From an uncultured Gammaproteobacteria bacterium (GTDB lineage Bacteria; Patescibacteriota; Patescibacteriia; S139-126), in assembly GCA_964493305.1 (NCBI GenBank), contig CAZBLW010000001.1:305484-369483 (forward strand): DNA of 64,000 nucleotides, read 5' to 3'. The translations under genes and the position numbers were made by a program. Of this stretch, positions 32,588 through 57,323 are shown in pieces (within the stretch, counting starts at the first letter, position 1; every line of letters starts with the position of its first letter). Below the pieces are notes generated by a model. It worked only from the letters and a program-made list of their open reading frames with translations. It was not told the DNA's origin and made no database searches.

Positions 32588-32632
32588 GATTACACCTGAA
32601 TTTATTTGATTGTTAATGATAGGAATAAGATA

Positions 32633-32660
32633 ATTTATCATAAAAATAAAGTTTTGTCAA
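32633..32660 (-). promoter_or_regulatory. Sigma-70 promoter with an extended -10.
   Basis: On the minus strand: TTGACA-16-tgATAAAT. Confidence 0.45.
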
Positions 32661-32689
32661 TCATATCTAAGGATGTTAAAATAAGTATT

Positions 32690-35600
32690 ATGGAGATAAA
32701 TCTAGATAATTTAAATAATGAGCAAAAACAGGCAGTGACTCATGGTGATGGCCCCTTGTTAATCGTTGCGGGCGCTGGCACTGGTAAAACCACAGTCATT
32801 ACTCAACGGATAAACTGGTTGATTCAAGAAAAAAAAATAGCCACTGATCAAATATTAGCTTTGACTTTTACGGAAAAAGCCGCTGGAGAAATGGAAGAAA
32901 GGATTGATAAGGCTTTACCTTATGGTTATGTGGAATTATGGGTTTCAACTTTTCATGCTTTTTGCGAAAGGATTTTGCGATTACACGCTCTTGATATCGG
33001 ATTGTCAACAAATTTTAAATTACTAGATCAAACTCAAGGGTGGTTGCTGATTAAAAAAAATTTGGAAAAATTTGCACTTGATTATTATCGTCCTTTAGGT
33101 AATCCGACTAAATTTATCCATGCCCTATTGCAACATTTTTCACGATGTAAAGATGAAGAAATATACCCCCAAGATTATTTGCGTTATGCTGAGGAGTTGA
33201 AAATAAATCTTGATGATATGGAGGGAAGTAAAGGAAATTCTAGAATTAAGAATAAAGAATTAAGAATTAAAGGTAAAAACAATGAGATTAGTGAACAAGA
33301 AATTGATAGGTTGAATGAAGTGGCCAATGCTTATCACACTTATCAACAAATATTGTTGGCAAATAATTCATTGGATTTTGGTGATTTGATAAATTACACT
33401 TTAAAATTATTTAAAACCAGACCGCAAATTCTTCAAAAATATCAGCAACAATTTAAGTATGTTTTAGTTGATGAATTTCAGGATACCAATTGGGCGCAAT
33501 ATGAATTGATTAAATTGTTAGCCAGACCTAAAAACAATATCACCGTAGTCGGTGATGATGACCAATCTATTTATAAATTTCGGGGAGCATCAGTTTCCAA
33601 TATTTTAAATTTTAAAAAAGATTTTCCTAAGGCAAGGGAGGTATTTCTCCAAACCAATTACCGCAGTGGGCAAGAAATTTTAGATTTAGCATACAATTTT
33701 ATCCAACTCAATAACCCCGACAGGTTGGAAATAAAACTCTCTACTCGTAGTCAGAAATTATCCAAACAACTGCTAGCTTATCATCAGCCAGTCAGTATGG
33801 TTAGTTATGATTTTTATGATTCATTGGAGCAAGAGGTAGAAAAAGTGGTGGATAATATTATGACCTTAAAAGAACAAGACCAAGAAACAAGTTGGAATGA
33901 TTTTGCTATCTTGGTGCGAGCTAATGATAGTGCTACTGAATTTATTCAGGAATTAGAGAATCGACAAATACCTTTTCAATTTTTAGCTTCCCGGGGGTTA
34001 TATTTTAAGCCGGTTATTTTGGATATAATCAATTATCTCCGTTTACTTGATGATTATCGGGAATCACCCTCGTTGTATCGCATACTGAATTTACCGGTTT
34101 TGAAAATTACTGAACAACAAATAATAAATTTAAATTATTGGTCCGGTCGCAAAGCCTGGTCTTTATTTGAAACCTTGCGTAATATTGCCACTATCAACAA
34201 CGTCAGCCCAGAAACCATAAAGGAAGTAAATAAATTGTTAGCTTGGATAGATAGACACACCAAATTAGCCAAGGATAAACCAGTAACCAAAGTAATAATG
34301 TCTTTTTTAGAAGACACTGGTTACAGTCAATATTTATCTAAACTTGAACCCAACAAAGCTCAAAATGCGATTGGTTATTTGAATCAGTTTTTAACTAAAG
34401 CCCGAGACTTTGAACGCAGTTTAGTTGATAATAGGGTTAGTGATTTTTTGGATGAGTTGGAAATGGAATTGGAAGCTGGGGAGCAAGGTAGTTTGTCTTG
34501 GCAGTTTGATACCGGACCAGAAGCTGTAAGTATAATGACTGTTCATGGAGCTAAAGGTTTGGAATTTAAGTATGTATTTATACCCAATTTAGTTGATAAA
34601 CGTTTTCCGACAATTGAGAGAAAAGAACCAATTGCCTTGCCTGATAAATTGATTAAGGATATTTTGCCCGAGGGGGATGCTCATATACAAGAAGAAAGAC
34701 GTTTGTTGTATGTGGCTATCACCCGAGCCAGGAGTGGTTTGTTTTTGTCAGGTGCCAAAGATTATGGGGGAGTGCGTGAAAAAAAACCCAGTCAGTTTTT
34801 GTATGAGTTAGGCATGGTCAGTAATCAAAACCAGACAAATAAAAAAGATACAAAAAAAACAGTAAGTAAGGTTAATAAAAATAGCTCCTCAAATTCGCCA
34901 GTAAGATCTTACGAACTACAACTACCTAAAACTTTTTCTTATAGTCAAATTAGTTCTTTTTTAGCCTGTCCTTTACAATATAAATTTGCCTATATTTTAA
35001 AAATACCGGTAAAAGGTAAATATACTTTTAGTTTTGGCAGTACAATTCATCAGACTTTGCAAAGGTTTTTTGAGCTGGTAAAATCCAGCGTGACTTTAAA
35101 ACAAACAGATTTATTTAATAAATCGGAAAATAACGCCAATAAATTACCTACCCTTGATGATTTAAGGCAAATTTATGAACAAGCCTGGATTGATGATTGG
35201 TATGATTCTAAATTACAACAGGAACAGTATAAGAAAAAAGGCAAATTAGCTTTAGAAAAATTTTATCAAGATTGGGCAAAAGAAAAAAATATTCCTGAAA
35301 GATTGGAAAACAGATTTAAATTGCAAGTGGGCGAGTTTGTTTTATCTGGTGCCATTGACCGGGTTGATAGATTGGCCGACAATAGTTTAGAAATAATTGA
35401 TTATAAAACTGGCAGTGCTAAGGAAAAATTGGAAACAGACAACAAGCGGCAGTTATTGATTTATCAGCTAGCGGCTAACCAGCATTTAAAAGAACAGGTA
35501 GGAAAACTTACTTATTATTATATCGAAGAGGGGAAAAAACTTTCCTTTTTAGGCAGTGATCAGGATTTAACAGATCTTAAAGAAAAGATTGTTACCACTA

Positions 35601-35701
35601 TTAAGGAAATGAAAAAAAGTGACTTTGCTCCCACTCCCAGTCCTCAGTTGTGTAAGTTTTGCGATTTCAATAAAATTTGTGAATATTCACAGGCGAAGTG
35701 A
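32690..35701 (+). CDS. UvrD/PcrA-type SF1 helicase fused to a C-terminal RecB/Cas4-like PD-(D/E)XK nuclease with a four-Cys cluster (AddA-like helicase-nuclease).
   Basis: AGAGTGKTT, VLVDEFQDTN, VVGDDDQSIYKFRGA, TVHGAKGLEF, VAITRAR. C-terminus has GAIDRVD…EIIDYKTG and Cys at FLACP plus CKFCDFNKIC. The start is taken at MEINLDNL; the track ORF begins at 32606. Confidence 0.85.
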   Translation: MEINLDNLNNEQKQAVTHGDGPLLIVAGAGTGKTTVITQRINWLIQEKKIATDQILALTFTEKAAGEMEERIDKALPYGYVELWVSTFHAFCERILRLHALDIGLSTNFKLLDQTQGWLLIKKNLEKFALDYYRPLGNPTKFIHALLQHFSRCKDEEIYPQDYLRYAEELKINLDDMEGSKGNSRIKNKELRIKGKNNEISEQEIDRLNEVANAYHTYQQILLANNSLDFGDLINYTLKLFKTRPQILQKYQQQFKYVLVDEFQDTNWAQYELIKLLARPKNNITVVGDDDQSIYKFRGASVSNILNFKKDFPKAREVFLQTNYRSGQEILDLAYNFIQLNNPDRLEIKLSTRSQKLSKQLLAYHQPVSMVSYDFYDSLEQEVEKVVDNIMTLKEQDQETSWNDFAILVRANDSATEFIQELENRQIPFQFLASRGLYFKPVILDIINYLRLLDDYRESPSLYRILNLPVLKITEQQIINLNYWSGRKAWSLFETLRNIATINNVSPETIKEVNKLLAWIDRHTKLAKDKPVTKVIMSFLEDTGYSQYLSKLEPNKAQNAIGYLNQFLTKARDFERSLVDNRVSDFLDELEMELEAGEQGSLSWQFDTGPEAVSIMTVHGAKGLEFKYVFIPNLVDKRFPTIERKEPIALPDKLIKDILPEGDAHIQEERRLLYVAITRARSGLFLSGAKDYGGVREKKPSQFLYELGMVSNQNQTNKKDTKKTVSKVNKNSSSNSPVRSYELQLPKTFSYSQISSFLACPLQYKFAYILKIPVKGKYTFSFGSTIHQTLQRFFELVKSSVTLKQTDLFNKSENNANKLPTLDDLRQIYEQAWIDDWYDSKLQQEQYKKKGKLALEKFYQDWAKEKNIPERLENRFKLQVGEFVLSGAIDRVDRLADNSLEIIDYKTGSAKEKLETDNKRQLLIYQLAANQHLKEQVGKLTYYYIEEGKKLSFLGSDQDLTDLKEKIVTTIKEMKKSDFAPTPSPQLCKFCDFNKICEYSQAK
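33238..33275. repeat. Heptad-repeat element inside the UvrD-like helicase coding sequence (TCTAGAA TTAAGAA TAAAGAA TTAAGAA TTAAAGG, translating to SRIKNKELRIKGK).
   Basis: Same (C/G)TAGAA(TTAAGAA)n structure as the other copies. Lies in a variable surface region between helicase motifs. Confidence 0.55.
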
Positions 35702-35745
35702 AGTTAGTATAAAGTATTAAGAAGTAAGTATTAAGTATAAAAATA
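35702..35745. repeat. Diverged heptad array (…AGTATTA AGAAGTA AGTATTA AGTAT…) immediately after the UvrD-like stop codon.
   Basis: Period-7 units related to the 56731 array. Confidence 0.35.
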
Positions 35746-35757
35746 AACTATAAAAAA

Positions 35758-35786
35758 ATCCCGCTTACTAAGCGGGATTTTTATTT
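35758..35786. terminator. Bidirectional terminator between the helicase and the antiporter gene.
   Basis: ATCCCGCTT-act-AAGCGGGAT flanked by an A-run and a T-run. Confidence 0.7.
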
Positions 35787-44674: not shown

Positions 44675-44819
44675 TTTAATTCATAATTATTAATTATTAA
44701 ATAATTTTAAATTTTTAAATACCGCTTCTAATCCCATCATATAGTTGTTAATATTTTTGCTTATACATTTTGGATTTATTTAAAAATTACAAAATTACCA
44801 AATTTTAAATTTATATTAT

Positions 44820-48807: not shown

Positions 48808-48830
48808 TAAAATTTCTTAATTTTTTATTC

Positions 48831-48869
48831 GTAACTCGTAATTCCTAATTCTTAATTCTTAATTCTACC
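48831..48869. repeat. Array of 5 tandem heptanucleotides (GTAACTC GTAATTC CTAATTC TTAATTC TTAATTC + TACC). Reverse complement is GGTAGAATTAAGAATTAAGAATTAGGAATTAC…. Sits immediately 5' of the thyA ATG.
   Basis: Strict period 7; near-identical to the elements inside miaA and the UvrD-like gene. Confidence 0.6.
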
Positions 48870-53387: not shown

Positions 53388-54404
53388 ATGGAACCCATTT
53401 TAATACATACCAAAATAAATGGTATTATTGGGTTTGCCATTCAACCTTTTTTAAAATATATTGAGTTAATTGAATTGATTAAATTTATTTTACTCAACGA
53501 TATTAAAAAGGTTGCACTGGTAGATTTAGGTCCCAGCAATGAAATTGTAAATTTTATCAAGATGTTAATTTTATTTGGTATAGATGTGGTTTATGTTGAC
53601 CATCATGAAAACCAAGAAAAAAATCTTGATAATTATCAAATCATTTATTCTTTATTAGGAGAAAATACACATATTTTACCTACAAAATATGCGCCCTCGG
53701 CTACCAGTATGGTAGCAATTGGTCAATGGTTAAAAGACGATATTGATTTAGTTTTTTTTCATGATGACCTTGATGGTTATCTAGCTTATCTCAAAGGTTG
53801 TTTTGAACAAAAGTTATATAATGAGTTAGATAATGATGCCAATAAATTTGAAGGCCAAGCCAATGGTTTGATTTATTCTAAATTGGCACAAATTTATTTA
53901 CAAGGGATCTATTTAGGTCCTAGTTATTTCATAAATCCACCCCGACGACAAGAGAATAGGCAAGTTCTTTATGATAAGTTAAAAATATGGATTGCAGGCG
54001 ATCAAAATGATAACTTGATAGCTGATTACTTAACTACTCTGCAAACAGAGTATGTAAAAAATAAAGAACTAACTTTTGGTTTATTTTCTCGTATTGAAAA
54101 ATTTATCGGTTTAATTTATATCGATATCATCGCTGAATACAAAAAGGAAATTAAACCAAATTTAGGATTATTGAAATCAGAAATGTTCAAACAAGGCAAT
54201 AACGAATGTGTTATAGCTATCCGGTTAGTCGGAAAATTTGGTGATCAGGTAAGTTTGTTCACCCCAAACAATTTTAAAAAACATTTTAAGTTGTTTGAGC
54301 TTCTACCTTTTGAAGAAAAAAACGACTGGCACCGCGAAAGCCGCTTGCATATTAAATATGAAGATTTTGAATTTTTTAAACAAAAAATTCAGAAATTTTA
54401 TTGA
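53388..54404 (+). CDS. Hypothetical protein (338 aa) with a VDHH motif, possibly a diverged DHH-type phosphoesterase.
   Basis: VVYVDHHEN resembles DHH motif III, but motif I (DxD) is not evident. RBS is GGAGG. Confidence 0.45.
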   Translation: MEPILIHTKINGIIGFAIQPFLKYIELIELIKFILLNDIKKVALVDLGPSNEIVNFIKMLILFGIDVVYVDHHENQEKNLDNYQIIYSLLGENTHILPTKYAPSATSMVAIGQWLKDDIDLVFFHDDLDGYLAYLKGCFEQKLYNELDNDANKFEGQANGLIYSKLAQIYLQGIYLGPSYFINPPRRQENRQVLYDKLKIWIAGDQNDNLIADYLTTLQTEYVKNKELTFGLFSRIEKFIGLIYIDIIAEYKKEIKPNLGLLKSEMFKQGNNECVIAIRLVGKFGDQVSLFTPNNFKKHFKLFELLPFEEKNDWHRESRLHIKYEDFEFFKQKIQKFY

Positions 54405-54412
54405 AAAATTTT

Positions 54413-54431
54413 GGGAGCAAATGTTGCTCCC
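54413..54431. terminator. Bidirectional terminator at the strand-switch point.
   Basis: GGGAGCAA-atg-TTGCTCCC followed by a T-rich stretch. Confidence 0.65.
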
Positions 54432-54432
54432 T

Positions 54433-55377
54433 TTAATTTTGTAAAAAATTTTTTATTAATTTTTCCGCGGTTTGAAAATTTTTTATCCAAATAATATTTT
54501 TATCTCGTCTAAACCAAGTGAGTTGGCGTTTGGCATAATGTCTAGTTTCAGTTTTTATAATTTCAATTGCTTGAGCTTTGTTTATTTGTTTATTTAAATA
54601 CATTTGTAGCTGTTTGTAGCCAATCCCAGACATTGACGGAAGTGAAGTTGAATAAGTTTTAGTTAATTTTTTAGTTTCTGAAATTAGACCATTTTTTATC
54701 ATTTTATCAACTCGTTGGTTTATTCGTTGGTAAAGTTTTTCTCGGGGTATATCCAAACCAATTTGTAAAAATTGATAAGATTGTTTTTTATTAGTCTTGG
54801 GTTCAAAAACACGTTGATTGGTTAAAATATATTCCAAGGCCCTGATAATTTTTCTTTTATTTTTTTTGTCAATGATTTGGTAAGTATTGGGATCAAGATT
54901 TTTTAGTTGACGGTTTAGTTTTGGTAAAGTTTGTTGGGCTAATTTTTTTCTTAAAATCAAATCAAGTTTACCTTGGGGTAAATCATAATTATTAACCAAA
55001 GCCGAAATATAAAGTCCAGTACCACCACAGATTATTGGAATTTGAAATTTAGAATTTAGAATTTTTGAGTTTAATATTTTTTTAGTTATTTGCAACCAAT
55101 CTGCCAAAGTAAACGATTTATTTGGTTTAGAATAGTCCATTAAAAAATGAGGTATGCCTTGGACATAGTAAATATTATTATGCAATTCCTTAATTCTTAA
55201 ATCTAACTTCTTAATTCTACCCTTAGGTTTGGCAGTGCCAATATTCATACCTTGATAAATCTGTCTTGAATCAGCTGAAATTATGTAACCTTTGAATTTT
55301 TTGGCTATTTTTAAAGCCAGTTCAGTTTTACCCGAGGCCGTAGGACCTAAAATAACCACAATTTTTTGTTTAGTCAT
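54433..55377 (-). CDS. miaA: tRNA dimethylallyltransferase, carrying an in-frame repeat-encoded insertion.
   Basis: VVILGPTASGKTELALKIA P-loop and QIYQGMNIGTAKP. The next conserved block (GIPHFLMD) is separated by the extra peptide KGRIKKLDLRIKELHNN. Confidence 0.85.
   Translation of the reverse strand: MTKQKIVVILGPTASGKTELALKIAKKFKGYIISADSRQIYQGMNIGTAKPKGRIKKLDLRIKELHNNIYYVQGIPHFLMDYSKPNKSFTLADWLQITKKILNSKILNSKFQIPIICGGTGLYISALVNNYDLPQGKLDLILRKKLAQQTLPKLNRQLKNLDPNTYQIIDKKNKRKIIRALEYILTNQRVFEPKTNKKQSYQFLQIGLDIPREKLYQRINQRVDKMIKNGLISETKKLTKTYSTSLPSMSGIGYKQLQMYLNKQINKAQAIEIIKTETRHYAKRQLTWFRRDKNIIWIKNFQTAEKLIKNFLQN
55186..55222. repeat. Heptad-repeat element inside the miaA coding sequence. Coding strand reads GGTAGAA TTAAGAA GTTAGAT TTAAGAA TTAAGGA ATTGCAT, which translates to GRIKKLDLRIKELH.
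   Basis: Near-identical to the intergenic array at 48831-48869; period 7 with reading frame maintained. Confidence 0.55.
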
Positions 55378-55378
55378 A

Positions 55379-56695
55379 TTATTTTATTTTAGTACCGGTT
55401 AATCCCCAAGCACCAGTTTCTTTTATTTTAACCGTAACAAAACTTCCTATTAATTTTTTGGCACCTATAAATTGTACGGTTTTAAATTCTCTATTTTTTC
55501 CGTGGAGTTTTTTATTCTTTATCCCATCAACCAATACTGTAGTAATTTGATCATTAAATTTTTGGTTGTATTCTTTAGCGGTTATTTTTAAAATTTCGTT
55601 TAAATATATTTCCCGACGTTTTTTTTCTTCAGCTGGCACGGAGTCCTGATATAAACGATTGGCTGAGGTACCGGGGCGAGGGGAGTATTGGGCAATATAG
55701 GCCATATCGTATTTTGCTTGTTGCATTAGTTTAGCTGTATCTAAAAACTGTTTTTCAGTTTCACCAGCAAAACCAACTATTATATCAGTAGAAATGGAAA
55801 TCCCGGGAATTTTTTTTCGGACACTGGCTAGTCTTTCCAAATAGTGTTCTACCGTATAATAACGGTTCATTTTTTTTAGAATCGAATTATTGCCTGATTG
55901 CACCGGAAGATGTAAATATTCGGCTAAATGTTTTTTTTCAGTCATGACACTAATTAAATCATCTGACATATCATAAGGGTGGGAGGTAACAAAACGCAAC
56001 CAAAAGTCACCCCGCCAGGAGTTCAGTTGATGTAGTAATTCAGCAAAAGATAACATTTTCTTTTTATAATTGGGACTACGAGTGTCTTTATTATCAAGGC
56101 CATATGAGTTTACATTCTGGCCCAATAGAGTAATTTCTTTGTAACCATTGTTAATAAGTTGTTTTATTTCCGAAAATATTTCTTCAGCCGGGCGGGATAT
56201 TTCTGGACCCCTGGTGTAGGGTACGGCACAATAAGTACAAAATTTATTGCAGCCAGTCATTATCGGAACATAGGCTTTAAAATTTGATTCATAACTAGGT
56301 TTAATTTGTAAATATGAAGTAGCGGGGATAAAATCACCAAAAGTTGCTTGGCGAATTTTTAGTTCTTGAGGTAGTTTTTGAATATCTTTCATATCCAGCA
56401 GAATATCAAAATCATATTTTAGTTTATCTTTATCGTGTTTTAGTACACAGCCGGTTAGTAGGGTAATAAGAGGGCGAGATTCTTTCATCAAATTCCAACG
56501 TCTAATTTTTCCATAGATTCTGTCCATAGCTTTTTGTCTAACTGTACAAGAAACCACACCGATAAAATCGGCGTCTTCTTCTTGGTTGGTTTTAATATAG
56601 CCAATTGATTGTAAAATAGTTTCTAGTCTTTCCGCATCAGATAAATTCATTTGACAACCAATGACAAATAAGTAATATTTGAGTTTTTTTGTCAT
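55379..56695 (-). CDS. miaB: tRNA-i6A37 methylthiotransferase (radical-SAM MTTase).
   Basis: N-terminal MTTase Cys triad (IGCQMN…), radical-SAM CNKFCTYCAVP, and a TRAM C-terminus. Confidence 0.85.
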   Translation of the reverse strand: MTKKLKYYLFVIGCQMNLSDAERLETILQSIGYIKTNQEEDADFIGVVSCTVRQKAMDRIYGKIRRWNLMKESRPLITLLTGCVLKHDKDKLKYDFDILLDMKDIQKLPQELKIRQATFGDFIPATSYLQIKPSYESNFKAYVPIMTGCNKFCTYCAVPYTRGPEISRPAEEIFSEIKQLINNGYKEITLLGQNVNSYGLDNKDTRSPNYKKKMLSFAELLHQLNSWRGDFWLRFVTSHPYDMSDDLISVMTEKKHLAEYLHLPVQSGNNSILKKMNRYYTVEHYLERLASVRKKIPGISISTDIIVGFAGETEKQFLDTAKLMQQAKYDMAYIAQYSPRPGTSANRLYQDSVPAEEKKRREIYLNEILKITAKEYNQKFNDQITTVLVDGIKNKKLHGKNREFKTVQFIGAKKLIGSFVTVKIKETGAWGLTGTKIK

Positions 56696-56730
56696 AAATT
56701 CGTGCTTTGTATTATATAGAATAAAGAAGT

Positions 56731-56767
56731 AAGAAGCAAGAATTAAGTATTAAGTATTTTGATTGGT
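56731..56767. repeat. Diverged heptad array (AGAAGTA AGAAGCA AGAATTA AGTATTA AGTATTT) in the miaB upstream region.
   Basis: Period-7 tandem units sharing the AAGAATTAAG core. Confidence 0.4.
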
Positions 56768-56811: not shown

Positions 56812-56834
56812 AGGACAGCTTAATTAGCTGTCCT
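56812..56834 (-). terminator. Terminator of the 56841..57323 gene.
   Basis: AGGACAGCT-taatt-AGCTGTCCT with U-rich flanks. Confidence 0.65.
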
Positions 56835-56840
56835 ATGTTT

Positions 56841-57323
56841 TTATCTTACAATCTCTTGGCAAACAATTTTACCAATTGCTTTGCCTTCCAGGCAAATTAA
56901 AGGACCGAGGTCCTTATTTTTTGTTGGTTTTTCAGTAATGATTTTTAAATCAAACTTACTTTGTGAAGAAGATTGTGGTTTTATGTCCAATATGAATTGG
57001 ACACGGCCGTCAGTATAAATTTTTTTAAAAAGAATAACTTTGGCATTAATTGTTTTTCCCAAAAATTCTTGGGAGATGTAGAAGTGACGGTACATAATTA
57101 ATTTTGTTCCTGGAAACAGGAACCCGTGAACATAATGTCCGGGAATAAAAGTTGTTTTTCCATTTAAGCTGATTTTATGCGCTTGATCATAACGCATATA
57201 TTTTCCCATTAAAGGGATTTTGACTGCGACGTTGTCGCATTCAAACATGTGACGGTATTCAGCTTCTACCACCTTAGCTAAATTTGTTGAAGATTTTTCA
57301 ACAGTTGCAACATTTGCGTTCAT
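56841..57323 (-). CDS. Hypothetical protein (160 aa).
   Basis: Its own strong promoter, a GGAG RBS and its own terminator. Confidence 0.55.
   Translation of the reverse strand: MNANVATVEKSSTNLAKVVEAEYRHMFECDNVAVKIPLMGKYMRYDQAHKISLNGKTTFIPGHYVHGFLFPGTKLIMYRHFYISQEFLGKTINAKVILFKKIYTDGRVQFILDIKPQSSSQSKFDLKIITEKPTKNKDLGPLICLEGKAIGKIVCQEIVR

What the first reader, a model, noticed from the sequence alone, without database searches (positions are those of the whole stretch)
55186..55222. The same heptad element inserted in frame in miaA, adding a basic KGRIKKLDLRIKELH loop
The miaA coding strand reads GGTAGAA TTAAGAA GTTAGAT TTAAGAA TTAAGGA ATTGCAT. This adds an extra peptide between the conserved QIY-GM-IGTAKP and G(I/V)PHHL(I/M)D blocks, where canonical MiaA has only a short linker. 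It is one of at least five loci with this repeat family: in-frame copies in miaA (55186) and the UvrD-like gene (33238), and intergenic copies at 48831 and, in diverged form, 35702 and 56731. The peptide sequences encoded in two unrelated enzymes are strikingly similar (RIK..L.LRIK).
Basis: seen in the sequence. Interest (0 to 1): 0.62.

Follow-up and report, generated by a model that had tools for sequence, protein, structure and literature searches.

The report
Old heptad-repeat remnant inside miaA
A worn 7-base tandem repeat, of a type scattered through this small Parcubacteria genome, sits in frame inside the tRNA-modifying enzyme MiaA and encodes part of an extra hairpin; it is real, but it is old and shared with related species, so it belongs to a known class of bacterial simple-sequence repeats and is not a fresh insertion.

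Summary
On the miaA coding strand (window 55221→55180, minus strand) the sequence is GGTAGAA TTAAGAA GTTAGAT TTAAGAA TTAAGGA ATTGCAT. It is in frame and encodes G53–H66 (GRIKKLDLRIKELH). Period-7 arrays are the only tandem-repeat class enriched in the window: 6 arrays, against 0–1 at other periods and 0.03 in shuffles.

The signal lies in the DNA, not only in the peptide. Synonymous resampling gives P≈0.0007, and the rare Lys codon AAG is used 4/4 times in the segment against 1/41 in the rest of miaA.

It is not a recent insertion. The segment sits at the same site in every close orthologue (78–54% identity, independent assemblies). The heptads are preserved in some and decayed in others.

This loop varies from 14 to 72 residues across 120 Patescibacteria MiaAs. 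Other lineages carry different heptads at the same site, for example (GTCAAAA)4.

Best reading: an ancient in-frame remnant of a heptanucleotide simple-sequence repeat in a permissive β-hairpin loop. Such repeats are a known, poorly understood class (Mrázek 2007; STRR; TAACTGA repeats). Interest is moderate. The open question is why the same unit families recur at many loci.

The parts
55180..55221 (-). Degenerate in-frame heptad array (TTAAGAA family, 6 units) encoding G53-H66 (GRIKKLDLRIKELH) of MiaA
   Evidence: Synonymous resampling P=0.0007. Lys codon AAG 4/4 here against 1/41 elsewhere in the gene.
54433..55377 (-). miaA (tRNA dimethylallyltransferase), 314 aa
   Evidence: Precomputed PF01715/PF01745 on the identical protein P0001. 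phmmer hits to 3EXA, 3D3Q, 2ZM5/3FOZ. AF2 model pLDDT 95, Foldseek TM 0.77 to 2ZM5/3FOZ.
55034..55066 (-). Second in-frame period-7 array in miaA (unit TTCTAAA on the coding strand; peptide ILNSKILNSKF) just before the conserved FQIPIICGGTG motif
   Evidence: The same site holds arrays in L001, L003, L005 and L008, and a different unit (TACCAAC/TACCAAA) in L007.
33239..33273 (+). In-frame heptad array (TCTAGAA TTAAGAA TAAAGAA TTAAGAA TTAAAGG) encoding SRIKNKELRIKG in the UvrD/PD-(D/E)XK helicase-nuclease
   Evidence: It lies in a hypervariable low-complexity linker of the protein family.
32690..35701 (+). UvrD-type helicase fused to a PD-(D/E)XK nuclease. The database protein is 1003 aa; the ORF lister extends it to a TTG at 32606.
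35703..35744 (+). Intergenic heptad array (TTAAGTA/TTAAGAA units) immediately after the helicase stop codon and before a terminator-like hairpin at about 35760-35778
   Evidence: A different-unit array occupies the same position after the helicase stop in L131.
48814..48869 (-). Eight-unit heptad array filling the 66-nt dut-thyA spacer. It begins GGTAGAATTAAGAA, like the miaA copy, and ends 5 nt before the thyA ATG on the other strand.
   Evidence: The orthologous array is present in L001, absent in L004 and L006, and of a different unit family in L007.
56715..56763 (+). Heptad array upstream of miaB; on the sense (minus) strand it reads ACTTAAT ACTTAAT TCTTGCT TCTTACT TCTTTAT TCTATAT
   Evidence: The proximal part is conserved and the distal part varies in length in L001 and L003-L006.
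56711..56739 (-). Putative miaB promoter made of heptad units: TTGCTT (56739-56734), a 17-nt spacer, then TATAAT (56716-56711), 15 nt before the ATG
   Evidence: Inferred from conservation in six orthologous loci. The tool's consensus scan did not list it because the -35 matches only 3 of 6 positions.
44676..44705 (.). AT-rich period-7 array (TTAATAA/TTAATTA units) in an intergenic spacer

Best explanation
The segment is a fossil of a heptanucleotide simple-sequence repeat of the TTAAGAA family. It became fixed in frame in a length-tolerant β-hairpin loop of MiaA, between the GTAKP and IPHxL motifs, in the common ancestor of this Parcubacteria clade.

Shown:
- The DNA carries heptad periodicity beyond what the peptide and the genome's codon usage would produce.
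- The same unit family forms intergenic arrays in this genome.
- The segment is orthologous and vertically inherited across the clade.
- The probable ancestral form, GGTAGAA TTAAGAA TTATGAA TTAAGAA TTAAGGG, is one substitution (TAA to TAT) from an uninterrupted array.
- The site is hypervariable in length across Patescibacteria, and other lineages carry other heptads there.

Inferred:
- The array arose and was reshaped by replication slippage and intra-array conversion. Only net changes that are a multiple of 3 nt and free of stop codons could survive, because perfect TTAAGAA arrays carry TAA in all six frames.
- The encoded Lys/Arg/Ile-rich peptide is a tolerated passenger. It forms the first strand (R54-K57) and tip of a hairpin whose second strand (N68-V72) is common to many Patescibacteria MiaAs.
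- It is not a specific functional module.
For: 1. Period 7 is uniquely enriched in the window, and the TTAAGAA motif occurs at 5 loci against 0.02 expected.
2. Resampling synonymous codons for GRIKKLDLRIKE gives a mean heptad match of 22/36 against 28 observed, P=0.0007. AAG accounts for 15% of Lys codons in the window's genes, 4/4 in the segment and 1/41 in the rest of miaA.
3. Eight orthologous loci from independent assemblies carry the segment at the same place. Examples are L001 (GGTAGAATTAAGAA GGTAGAATTAAGAA TTAAGGGG), L007 (GGCAGAATTAAGAATTATGAATTAAAAATTAAGGG) and L133. It is decayed in L003, L005, L006, L008 and L134.
4. The loop spans 14-72 residues in 120 homologues. L129 has (GTCAAAA)4, L130 has TTCAAAA-type units and L139 has (AGTCAAA)3 at the same site.
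5. Other Parcubacteria loci have 4-7 period-7 arrays per ~20 kb. Some are in frame in gatB, pgk, miaB and a glycosyltransferase.
6. AF2 predicts strand 54-57, a loop, then strand 68-72, with pLDDT ~95. Solved MiaAs lack 16 residues here.
7. Heptanucleotide repeats are the most abundant long-SSR class in many bacteria, and slippage has been proposed as the cause (Mrázek 2007, as summarised in PMC4679880 and PMC4692102).
Against: - Rare AAG codons are kept at the same positions in orthologues down to 54% identity: 16/25 Lys codons in the segment against 32/333 elsewhere. That is more conservation of synonymous states than passive decay predicts. It needs either ongoing intra-array homogenisation, which L001's perfect 14-nt duplication supports, or a constraint at the DNA or RNA level.
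- The same unit family, and even identical higher-order strings, occur at unlinked loci. One 28-mer, AGAATTAAGAATAAAGAATTAAGAATTA, is shared by the window's helicase copy and L001's dut-thyA spacer. L007 has a different family (ACCAAMT) at three orthologous sites. Purely local slippage does not explain this.
- Surface exposure and distance to the tRNA could not be computed because no model coordinates were available.
Confidence: 0.7

Rival explanations
1. A discrete, tiny mobile element made of heptads recently inserted itself in frame into miaA and the helicase gene.
For: - The copies share the boundary strings (GG/TC)TAGAATTAAGAA...TTAA(G/A)GG.
- All four arrays that carry TTAAGAA units start with NNTAGAA.
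- One 28-mer is identical between a coding copy and an intergenic copy in different genomes.
- The dut-thyA array is present in W and L001 but absent in L004 and L006.
Against: - The miaA segment is at the same site, with the same length and frame, in every close orthologue down to 54% identity.
- The helicase copy is shared by P0124 and P0126 at 73-77% identity.
- No inverted termini, target-site duplication or associated transposase were seen.
- Array lengths differ by unit steps, as expected for SSRs.
Confidence: 0.05
2. The hairpin extension is an adaptive, basic, nucleic-acid-binding peptide selected at the protein level, for example as an extra tRNA contact. The DNA periodicity would then be a by-product of AT-rich codon usage.
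For: - The peptide is basic, is predicted with high confidence as a β-hairpin and is partly conserved (G53, I62 and K63 in close orthologues).
- A near-identical peptide sits in another nucleic-acid enzyme.
Against: - Synonymous resampling rejects codon usage as the source of the periodicity (P=0.0007).
- AAG and AGA are used against the genome's codon bias.
- Across lineages the site carries unrelated sequences of 14-72 residues.
- Similar heptad-encoded stretches occur in pgk and gatB, which do not bind nucleic acid polymers in the same way.
- Intergenic arrays of the same unit cannot be explained by selection on a peptide.
Confidence: 0.1
3. The heptads are functional DNA or RNA motifs, for example binding sites for a factor that recognises heptamers such as a cold-shock-domain protein or ribosomal protein S1, or promoter/5'-UTR modules. 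The coding copy would then be kept by the same constraint or refreshed from such sites.
For: - Arrays sit directly upstream of start codons (thyA, 5 nt) and form the conserved miaB promoter region.
- Positions are conserved while units change between lineages.
- Rare synonymous codons are retained.
- MacGregor 2015 proposed the same for TAACTGA repeats.
Against: - miaA is the last gene of a miaB-miaA pair and is followed by a terminator, so an internal regulatory site has no obvious target.
- Orientation relative to transcription is not consistent among loci.
- Several orthologues have let the periodicity decay without losing the gene.
- The promoter scan shows no excess of promoter-like sites.
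- No binding factor has been identified.
Confidence: 0.12
4. The segment is a chance resemblance or an assembly artefact.
For: The miaA copy alone is only 75% periodic and fails the stricter self-similarity filter.
Against: - The motif test gives 0.02 expected against 15 hits.
- The identical protein is recorded from two sources.
- The same segment is present in eight independent assemblies.
Confidence: 0.01

Closest known systems
Heptanucleotide long simple-sequence repeats (LSSRs) of prokaryotic genomes (Mrázek, Guo & Shah 2007, as summarised in PMC4679880 and PMC4692102)
   Same: Tandem 7-nt units. They are the dominant long-SSR class, mostly intergenic, patchy across phyla, and attributed to polymerase slippage.
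   Different: - That work noted that units whose length is not a multiple of 3 are rare inside genes.
- Here degenerate copies persist in frame inside conserved housekeeping enzymes and are inherited across species.
- I found no report of this for Patescibacteria.
TAACTGA direct repeats of marine Beggiatoaceae, cyanobacteria and Bacteroidetes (MacGregor 2015, PMC4679880)
   Same: - Heptamer arrays of 2-6 or more units.
- Many lie a few nucleotides upstream of start codons.
- The unit carries stop codons in all three frames, so coding copies are constrained.
- The phylum distribution is similarly odd: (AATTAAG)n arrays were found here in cyanobacteria, Bacteroidota, Thioploca, Treponema and Patescibacteria.
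   Different: - The unit is different.
- Its in-ORF copies are mostly at protein termini or in hypothetical proteins, whereas this one is internal to a catalytic-core loop of MiaA.
- TTAAGAA has TAA on both strands, so neither orientation can be read through without substitutions.
STRR heptanucleotide repeats of heterocystous cyanobacteria (Mazel et al. 1990; cited in PMC4692102) and GGGAATC/GGGGAYT repeats of Xanthomonas and Nostoc (Rehm 2015, PMC4692102)
   Same: Families of tandem heptamers. They often lie between the same genes in related species while varying in length and sequence.
   Different: Those units are G-rich and may form quadruplexes. They are intergenic and have not been described as in-frame protein segments.
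Small dispersed repeats (SDR) of Nostoc (Elhai et al. 2008; recalled from memory, paper not held)
   Same: Very short repeat families that appear at many loci, including inside conserved genes, without disrupting them.
   Different: SDRs are 21-27-nt discrete units, several of them palindromic, with presence/absence polymorphism. Here there is a unit-7 tandem structure and no evidence of discrete mobility.
Slippage-generated low-complexity regions in prokaryotic proteins (e.g. Persi et al. 2023, PMC10120016)
   Same: An in-frame low-complexity insert in a variable surface region, generated by proliferation of short repeats.
   Different: Typical cases have units of 1-5 nt or multiples of 3 nt. 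A 7-nt unit forces 21-nt (7-aa) frame-preserving steps and removal of stop codons.

Membership tests
MiaA / IPPT tRNA dimethylallyltransferase | P-loop GPTASGKT and the conserved DSxQ(I/V)Y, GTAKP and GGTGLY motifs | tested here: met
   G11, T13, A14, G16, K17, D36, G118 and G119 are invariant in the 120-sequence alignment and all the motifs are visible; Y41, G47, T48 and K50 are invariant in the 29-sequence alignment and ≥90% conserved.
MiaA / IPPT tRNA dimethylallyltransferase | Sequence and fold match to solved MiaA structures | tested here: met
   phmmer E=4e-56 to 3EXA/2QGN and 2e-35 to 2ZM5/3FOZ. Foldseek TM 0.77 to the E. coli MiaA-tRNA complexes. PF01715 is precomputed for the identical protein.
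MiaA / IPPT tRNA dimethylallyltransferase | i6A37 transferase activity on tRNA | not testable with these tools
   Needs an enzyme assay. The adjacent miaB-like radical-SAM gene (55379..56695) is consistent with an ms2i6A pathway.
Heptanucleotide simple-sequence repeat (LSSR/STRR class) | Head-to-tail units of period 7 | tested here: met
   TRF gives period 7, 4.9 copies and 75% matches at 55184-55218. The segment matches (TTAAGAA)5 at 28/35 positions.
Heptanucleotide simple-sequence repeat (LSSR/STRR class) | Arrays longer or more frequent than composition predicts, and specific to period 7 | tested here: met
   6 arrays at period 7, against 0-1 at periods 3-15 and 0.03 in shuffles. The same holds in the related loci.
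Heptanucleotide simple-sequence repeat (LSSR/STRR class) | The DNA-level repeat is not explained by the encoded peptide | tested here: met
   Synonymous resampling P=0.0007. AAG is used 4/4 times against 1/41 elsewhere.
Heptanucleotide simple-sequence repeat (LSSR/STRR class) | Unit-number variation between strains or species at orthologous loci | tested here: inconclusive
   - The miaB-upstream array differs in length among W, L001, L003, L004 and L005.
- The dut-thyA array has 8 units in both W and L001.
- The only same-strain pair (L001 and L002) is identical.
- The miaA copy shows no length variation within the close clade other than one codon.
Miniature mobile element (MITE/SDR-like) | Terminal inverted repeats or target-site duplication | tested here: not met
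   By inspection of the copies there are no inverted termini or flanking duplications, only tandem units.
Miniature mobile element (MITE/SDR-like) | Presence/absence at orthologous sites in close relatives | tested here: not met
   For the miaA copy, it is present in all orthologues examined. The dut-thyA spacer array is absent in L004 and L006, which SSR loss explains equally well.
TAACTGA-type 5'-proximal heptamer repeats (MacGregor 2015) | Unit TAACTGA | tested here: not met
   The unit here is TTAAGAA or a variant.
TAACTGA-type 5'-proximal heptamer repeats (MacGregor 2015) | Arrays within a few nucleotides upstream of start codons, and stop codons in every frame of the unit | tested here: met
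   The thyA array ends 5 nt before the ATG and the miaB array lies 15-20 nt upstream of its ATG. Reading the sequence directly, TAA occurs in all three frames of (TTAAGAA)n and of its complement.

The most novel reading that the evidence does not exclude
Heptad arrays in Patescibacteria may not be passive slippage products. They may form dispersed families of units, differing between lineages, that move or are copied between loci by ectopic conversion or a templated/copy-paste process. Alternatively they may be held in place by a factor that reads heptamers. Either way they would repeatedly colonise the same permissive sites, including surface loops of housekeeping enzymes such as MiaA, and be kept recognisable at synonymous sites over long evolutionary distances.
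Probability: 0.2. Interest if true: 0.7.

Novelty: new member of a known kind. Interest (0 to 1): 0.4.

Why it matters
For genome annotation, the extra MiaA peptide should not be read as a new domain, an intein-like element or an assembly error.

More broadly, heptanucleotide repeats, a class noticed in 1990 and 2007 but never explained, turn out to be abundant in ultra-small Parcubacteria genomes. There they reach into the coding sequence of conserved enzymes at recurrent, length-tolerant loops.

These streamlined genomes have many sequenced relatives. That makes them a tractable system for asking why 7-nt units are favoured, how arrays at unlinked loci come to share units, and how non-triplet repeats are accommodated in proteins.

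Tried and rejected
- **Organism name.** The cluster look-up for P0001 returned no name or accession. Taxonomy rests on the names of homologues (Parcubacteria/Patescibacteria).
- **Strain-level copy-number polymorphism.** L001 and L002 proved 100% identical over 5.3 kb, so they were uninformative.
- **Metagenome scan for more close orthologues.** It gave only four usable new ones: L132, L133, L134 and L137.
- **Consensus promoter scan.** It found no excess of promoter-like sites (13 against 12 expected) and did not list the conserved TTGCTT-17-TATAAT upstream of miaB. It did flag TTGGCA-16-TAGAAT inside miaA, overlapping the heptads, which I treat as chance.
- **Solvent exposure and distance to tRNA.** Model coordinates are not exposed to scripts, and the review I consulted gives no detail on this loop.
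- **Elhai 2008.** The SDR paper is not held.
- **Literature searches.** Searches for heptamer repeats in CPR/Parcubacteria found nothing specific.
- **Ideas considered and rejected.**
  - Phase variation: the miaA array is too degenerate and any ±1-unit slip would frameshift.
  - DNA curvature: a 7-bp period is out of phase with the helix.
  - An internal promoter within miaA: there is no downstream gene before the terminator at 54413-54431.

Full report
**1. Observation**

miaA occupies window 54433..55377 on the minus strand and encodes 314 aa. It follows a miaB-like radical-SAM gene (55379..56695) on the same strand. On the coding strand from 55221 to 55180 the sequence is GGTAGAA TTAAGAA GTTAGAT TTAAGAA TTAAGGA ATTGCAT. 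It is in frame and encodes G53-H66, GRIKKLDLRIKELH.

TRF reports period 7, 4.9 copies and 75% matches. A self-similarity scan finds 6 arrays at period 7 and 0-1 at every other period from 3 to 15. Markov shuffles give 0.03.
- 33239-33273
- 35703-35744
- 48814-48869
- 55180-55221
- 56715-56763

Two further period-7 arrays exist. One is at 55034-55066, also inside miaA, with unit TTCTAAA and peptide ILNSKILNSKF. The other is at 44676-44705. Four of the seven arrays are intergenic, although ORFs of 100 aa or more cover about 91% of the window.

**2. The signal is in the DNA, not just the peptide**

I re-encoded GRIKKLDLRIKE with the window's own codon usage. The mean heptad match was 22/36 against 28 observed, P≈0.0007. 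Lys is AAG in only 15% of codons in the window's genes, but 4/4 in the segment against 1/41 in the rest of miaA.

A perfect (TTAAGAA)n array has TAA in all three frames on both strands, as direct reading shows. Coding copies must therefore carry substitutions. miaA reads AAG TTA GAT where a perfect array would read AAT TAA GAA. The helicase copy reads AAT AAA GAA. Both genes use the same frame, which is why the peptides GRIKKLDLRIKE and SRIKNKELRIKG resemble each other.

**3. It is extra relative to canonical MiaA, but it is old**

Solved MiaAs (3EXA, 3D3Q, 2ZM5/3FOZ) have 16 fewer residues between TAKP and PH. The closest homologues are unnamed, and the named ones are Patescibacteria/Parcubacteria.

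All close orthologues (78-54% identity) have the segment at the same position and with nearly the same length. DNA from eight syntenic loci in independent assemblies shows it evolving as an orthologous coding segment:
- L001: GGTAGAATTAAGAA GGTAGAATTAAGAA TTAAGGGG, a perfect 14-nt duplication.
- L007 (54% identity): GGCAGAATTAAGAATTATGAATTAAAAATTAAGGG.
- L133: GGTAAAATTAAGAATATTGAATTAAGAATTAAGGG.
- L003, L005, L006, L008 and L134: the periodicity has decayed.

The likely ancestral form is one substitution (TAA to TAT) from an uninterrupted array. This rules out an assembly artefact and a recent insertion.

One point needs explaining. Rare AAG codons persist at the same positions across the clade, 16/25 Lys codons in the segment against 32/333 elsewhere. 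That suggests continuing intra-array homogenisation, or some constraint at the DNA or RNA level.

**4. The site is a permissive hot spot**

Across 120 homologues the GTAKP...PHxL interval ranges from 14 to 72 residues. Many Patescibacteria have a 13-15-residue hairpin there. Other lineages carry other heptads at the same site:
- L129: (GTCAAAA)4 plus decayed units.
- L130: TTCAAAA/TCCAAAA/TTAAAAA units.
- L139: (AGTCAAA)3.

The AlphaFold2 model (pLDDT 95) predicts strand R54-K57, a loop with one helical turn (58-67) and strand N68-V72, which is a β-hairpin. The fold matches MiaA-tRNA complexes at TM 0.77. I could not compute exposure or the distance to the tRNA.

The helicase copy lies in an equally hypervariable linker. 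There too, other lineages carry peptides of heptad type, such as KVKSQKSKV and KSQIANYKLQTNPKSEIINTQYEIQ.

**5. Wider context**

Each ~20-kb Parcubacteria locus I examined has up to 7 period-7 arrays (0-5 in the eight miaA-syntenic loci; 4-7 in L129, L130 and L131), against at most 1 at almost every other period (L131 has 3 at period 8). Some are in frame in gatB, pgk, miaB and a glycosyltransferase.

Arrays recur at orthologous positions:
- upstream of miaB;
- in the dut-thyA spacer;
- just after the helicase stop codon;
- at both miaA sites.

L007 uses a different unit (ACCAACT/ACCAAAT) at three of these positions, 9 matches against 1.04 expected. It keeps the TTAAGAA type at miaA site 1.

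Upstream of miaB the array itself supplies a conserved TTGCTT-17 nt-TATAAT arrangement. This is an inference, since the consensus scan did not list it.

(AATTAAG)n arrays occur in at least 120 GTDB genomes from filamentous cyanobacteria, Bacteroidota, Treponema, Thioploca, Chloroflexia and several Patescibacteria. They are almost always intergenic: 2 of 122 lie in open frames, and the median length is 33 nt.

**6. Comparison with what is known**

Heptanucleotide repeats are a recognised but unexplained class:
- Mrázek 2007 found them to be the most abundant long SSRs and suggested a link to the polymerase footprint.
- Mazel 1990 described STRR heptamers.
- Rehm 2015 described GGGAATC repeats.
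- MacGregor 2015 described TAACTGA repeats near start codons, with rare in-ORF copies and a similar phylum spread.

I found no report of such repeats for CPR bacteria.

The miaA segment is therefore a new member of this class. Its less usual features are in-frame retention inside a catalytic-core loop and inheritance across species.

**7. Verdict**

The interpretation as an inserted element is only partly right.

Most likely (about 0.7), this is an ancient, slippage-derived, in-frame SSR remnant in a tolerant hairpin loop, and the peptide is a passenger.

Some observations remain unexplained, and they leave about 0.2 for an active dispersal or recognition mechanism:
- unit families and higher-order variants shared between unlinked loci, including a 28-mer shared by the window's helicase copy and L001's spacer;
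- unit replacement at conserved positions;
- retention of rare codons.

Noticed in passing
window 56711-56763 (minus strand is sense for miaB): The region upstream of miaB is built from heptad units. It contains a TTGCTT-17 nt-TATAAT arrangement conserved in six orthologous loci, while the distal part of the array varies in unit number between species.
   Followed up: partly
L007 8126-8139, 10319-10360, 15741-15768: A relative with 41% GC carries a different heptad family (ACCAACT/ACCAAAT) at three positions orthologous to TTAAGAA/TTCTAAA arrays of the window: upstream of miaB, miaA site 2 and the dut-thyA spacer. A 17-mer is identical between two of them. There are 9 matches against 1.04 expected.
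   Followed up: partly
window 55034-55066: A second in-frame period-7 array lies in miaA. It is anchored on the codons of the conserved (F/Y)QIP motif: TTT CAA ATT CCA in the window and TAC CAA ATA CCA in L007 are themselves 7-nt proto-repeats. This suggests in-situ slippage from a coding seed.
   Followed up: partly
L129 12276-12323 (gatB), L130 2342-2379 (pgk), L130 9038-9069 (miaB), L131 6165-6201 (glycosyltransferase): Other Parcubacteria loci carry clean heptad arrays inside called housekeeping genes. Examples are (GGTTTTT)5 on the complement of gatB and (AAGTCAA)n in miaB. Those proteins are correspondingly longer than the window's versions.
   Followed up: partly
Proteins P0123 (helicase), P0062, P0091, P0095, P0112, P0120 (MiaA loop): The same hypervariable loops also hold non-heptad inserts with peptides such as PPLKIRGGEGG, SPLERGQGCV, DSSTPSADSDRND and DCFVVAAAPSRNDK. 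These look like translated GC-rich hairpin-type repeat elements. Their DNA was not examined.
   Followed up: no
L009-L128 (GTDB genomes): (AATTAAG)n arrays occur in at least 120 genomes of cyanobacteria, Bacteroidota, Treponema, Thioploca, Chloroflexia, Planctomycetes and Patescibacteria. Some are 86-216 nt long. Several show gradients of unit variants, such as AATTACG to AATTAAG and GAATCGG to GAATTGA to GAATTAA. In Chloroflexia locus L030 one of the arrays sits just upstream of a gene whose start (ATGATTCAGCAAGAG…) I read as ribosomal protein L14; this was not verified.
   Followed up: partly
window 33239, 48869, 55221, 56715: All four arrays that contain TTAAGAA units begin with NNTAGAA (TCTAGAA, GGTAGAA, GGTAGAA, TATAGAA). 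Both coding copies end TTAA(G/A)GG. This may be a shared founder sequence or may be chance.
   Followed up: no
window 32606-32690: The ORF lister starts the helicase-nuclease at a TTG at 32606 (1031 aa). The database protein identical to it is 1003 aa, which implies a start at 32690.
   Followed up: no
L008 8290-9568: In one relative the miaB gene is split into five short called ORFs. This is either a pseudogene or frameshift errors in that assembly.
   Followed up: no
window 54413-54431 and 56812-56834: Two GC-rich hairpins score as terminators on both strands. One lies between the convergent ORF 53388..54404 and miaA. The other lies between ORF 56841..57323 and the miaB promoter region.
   Followed up: no
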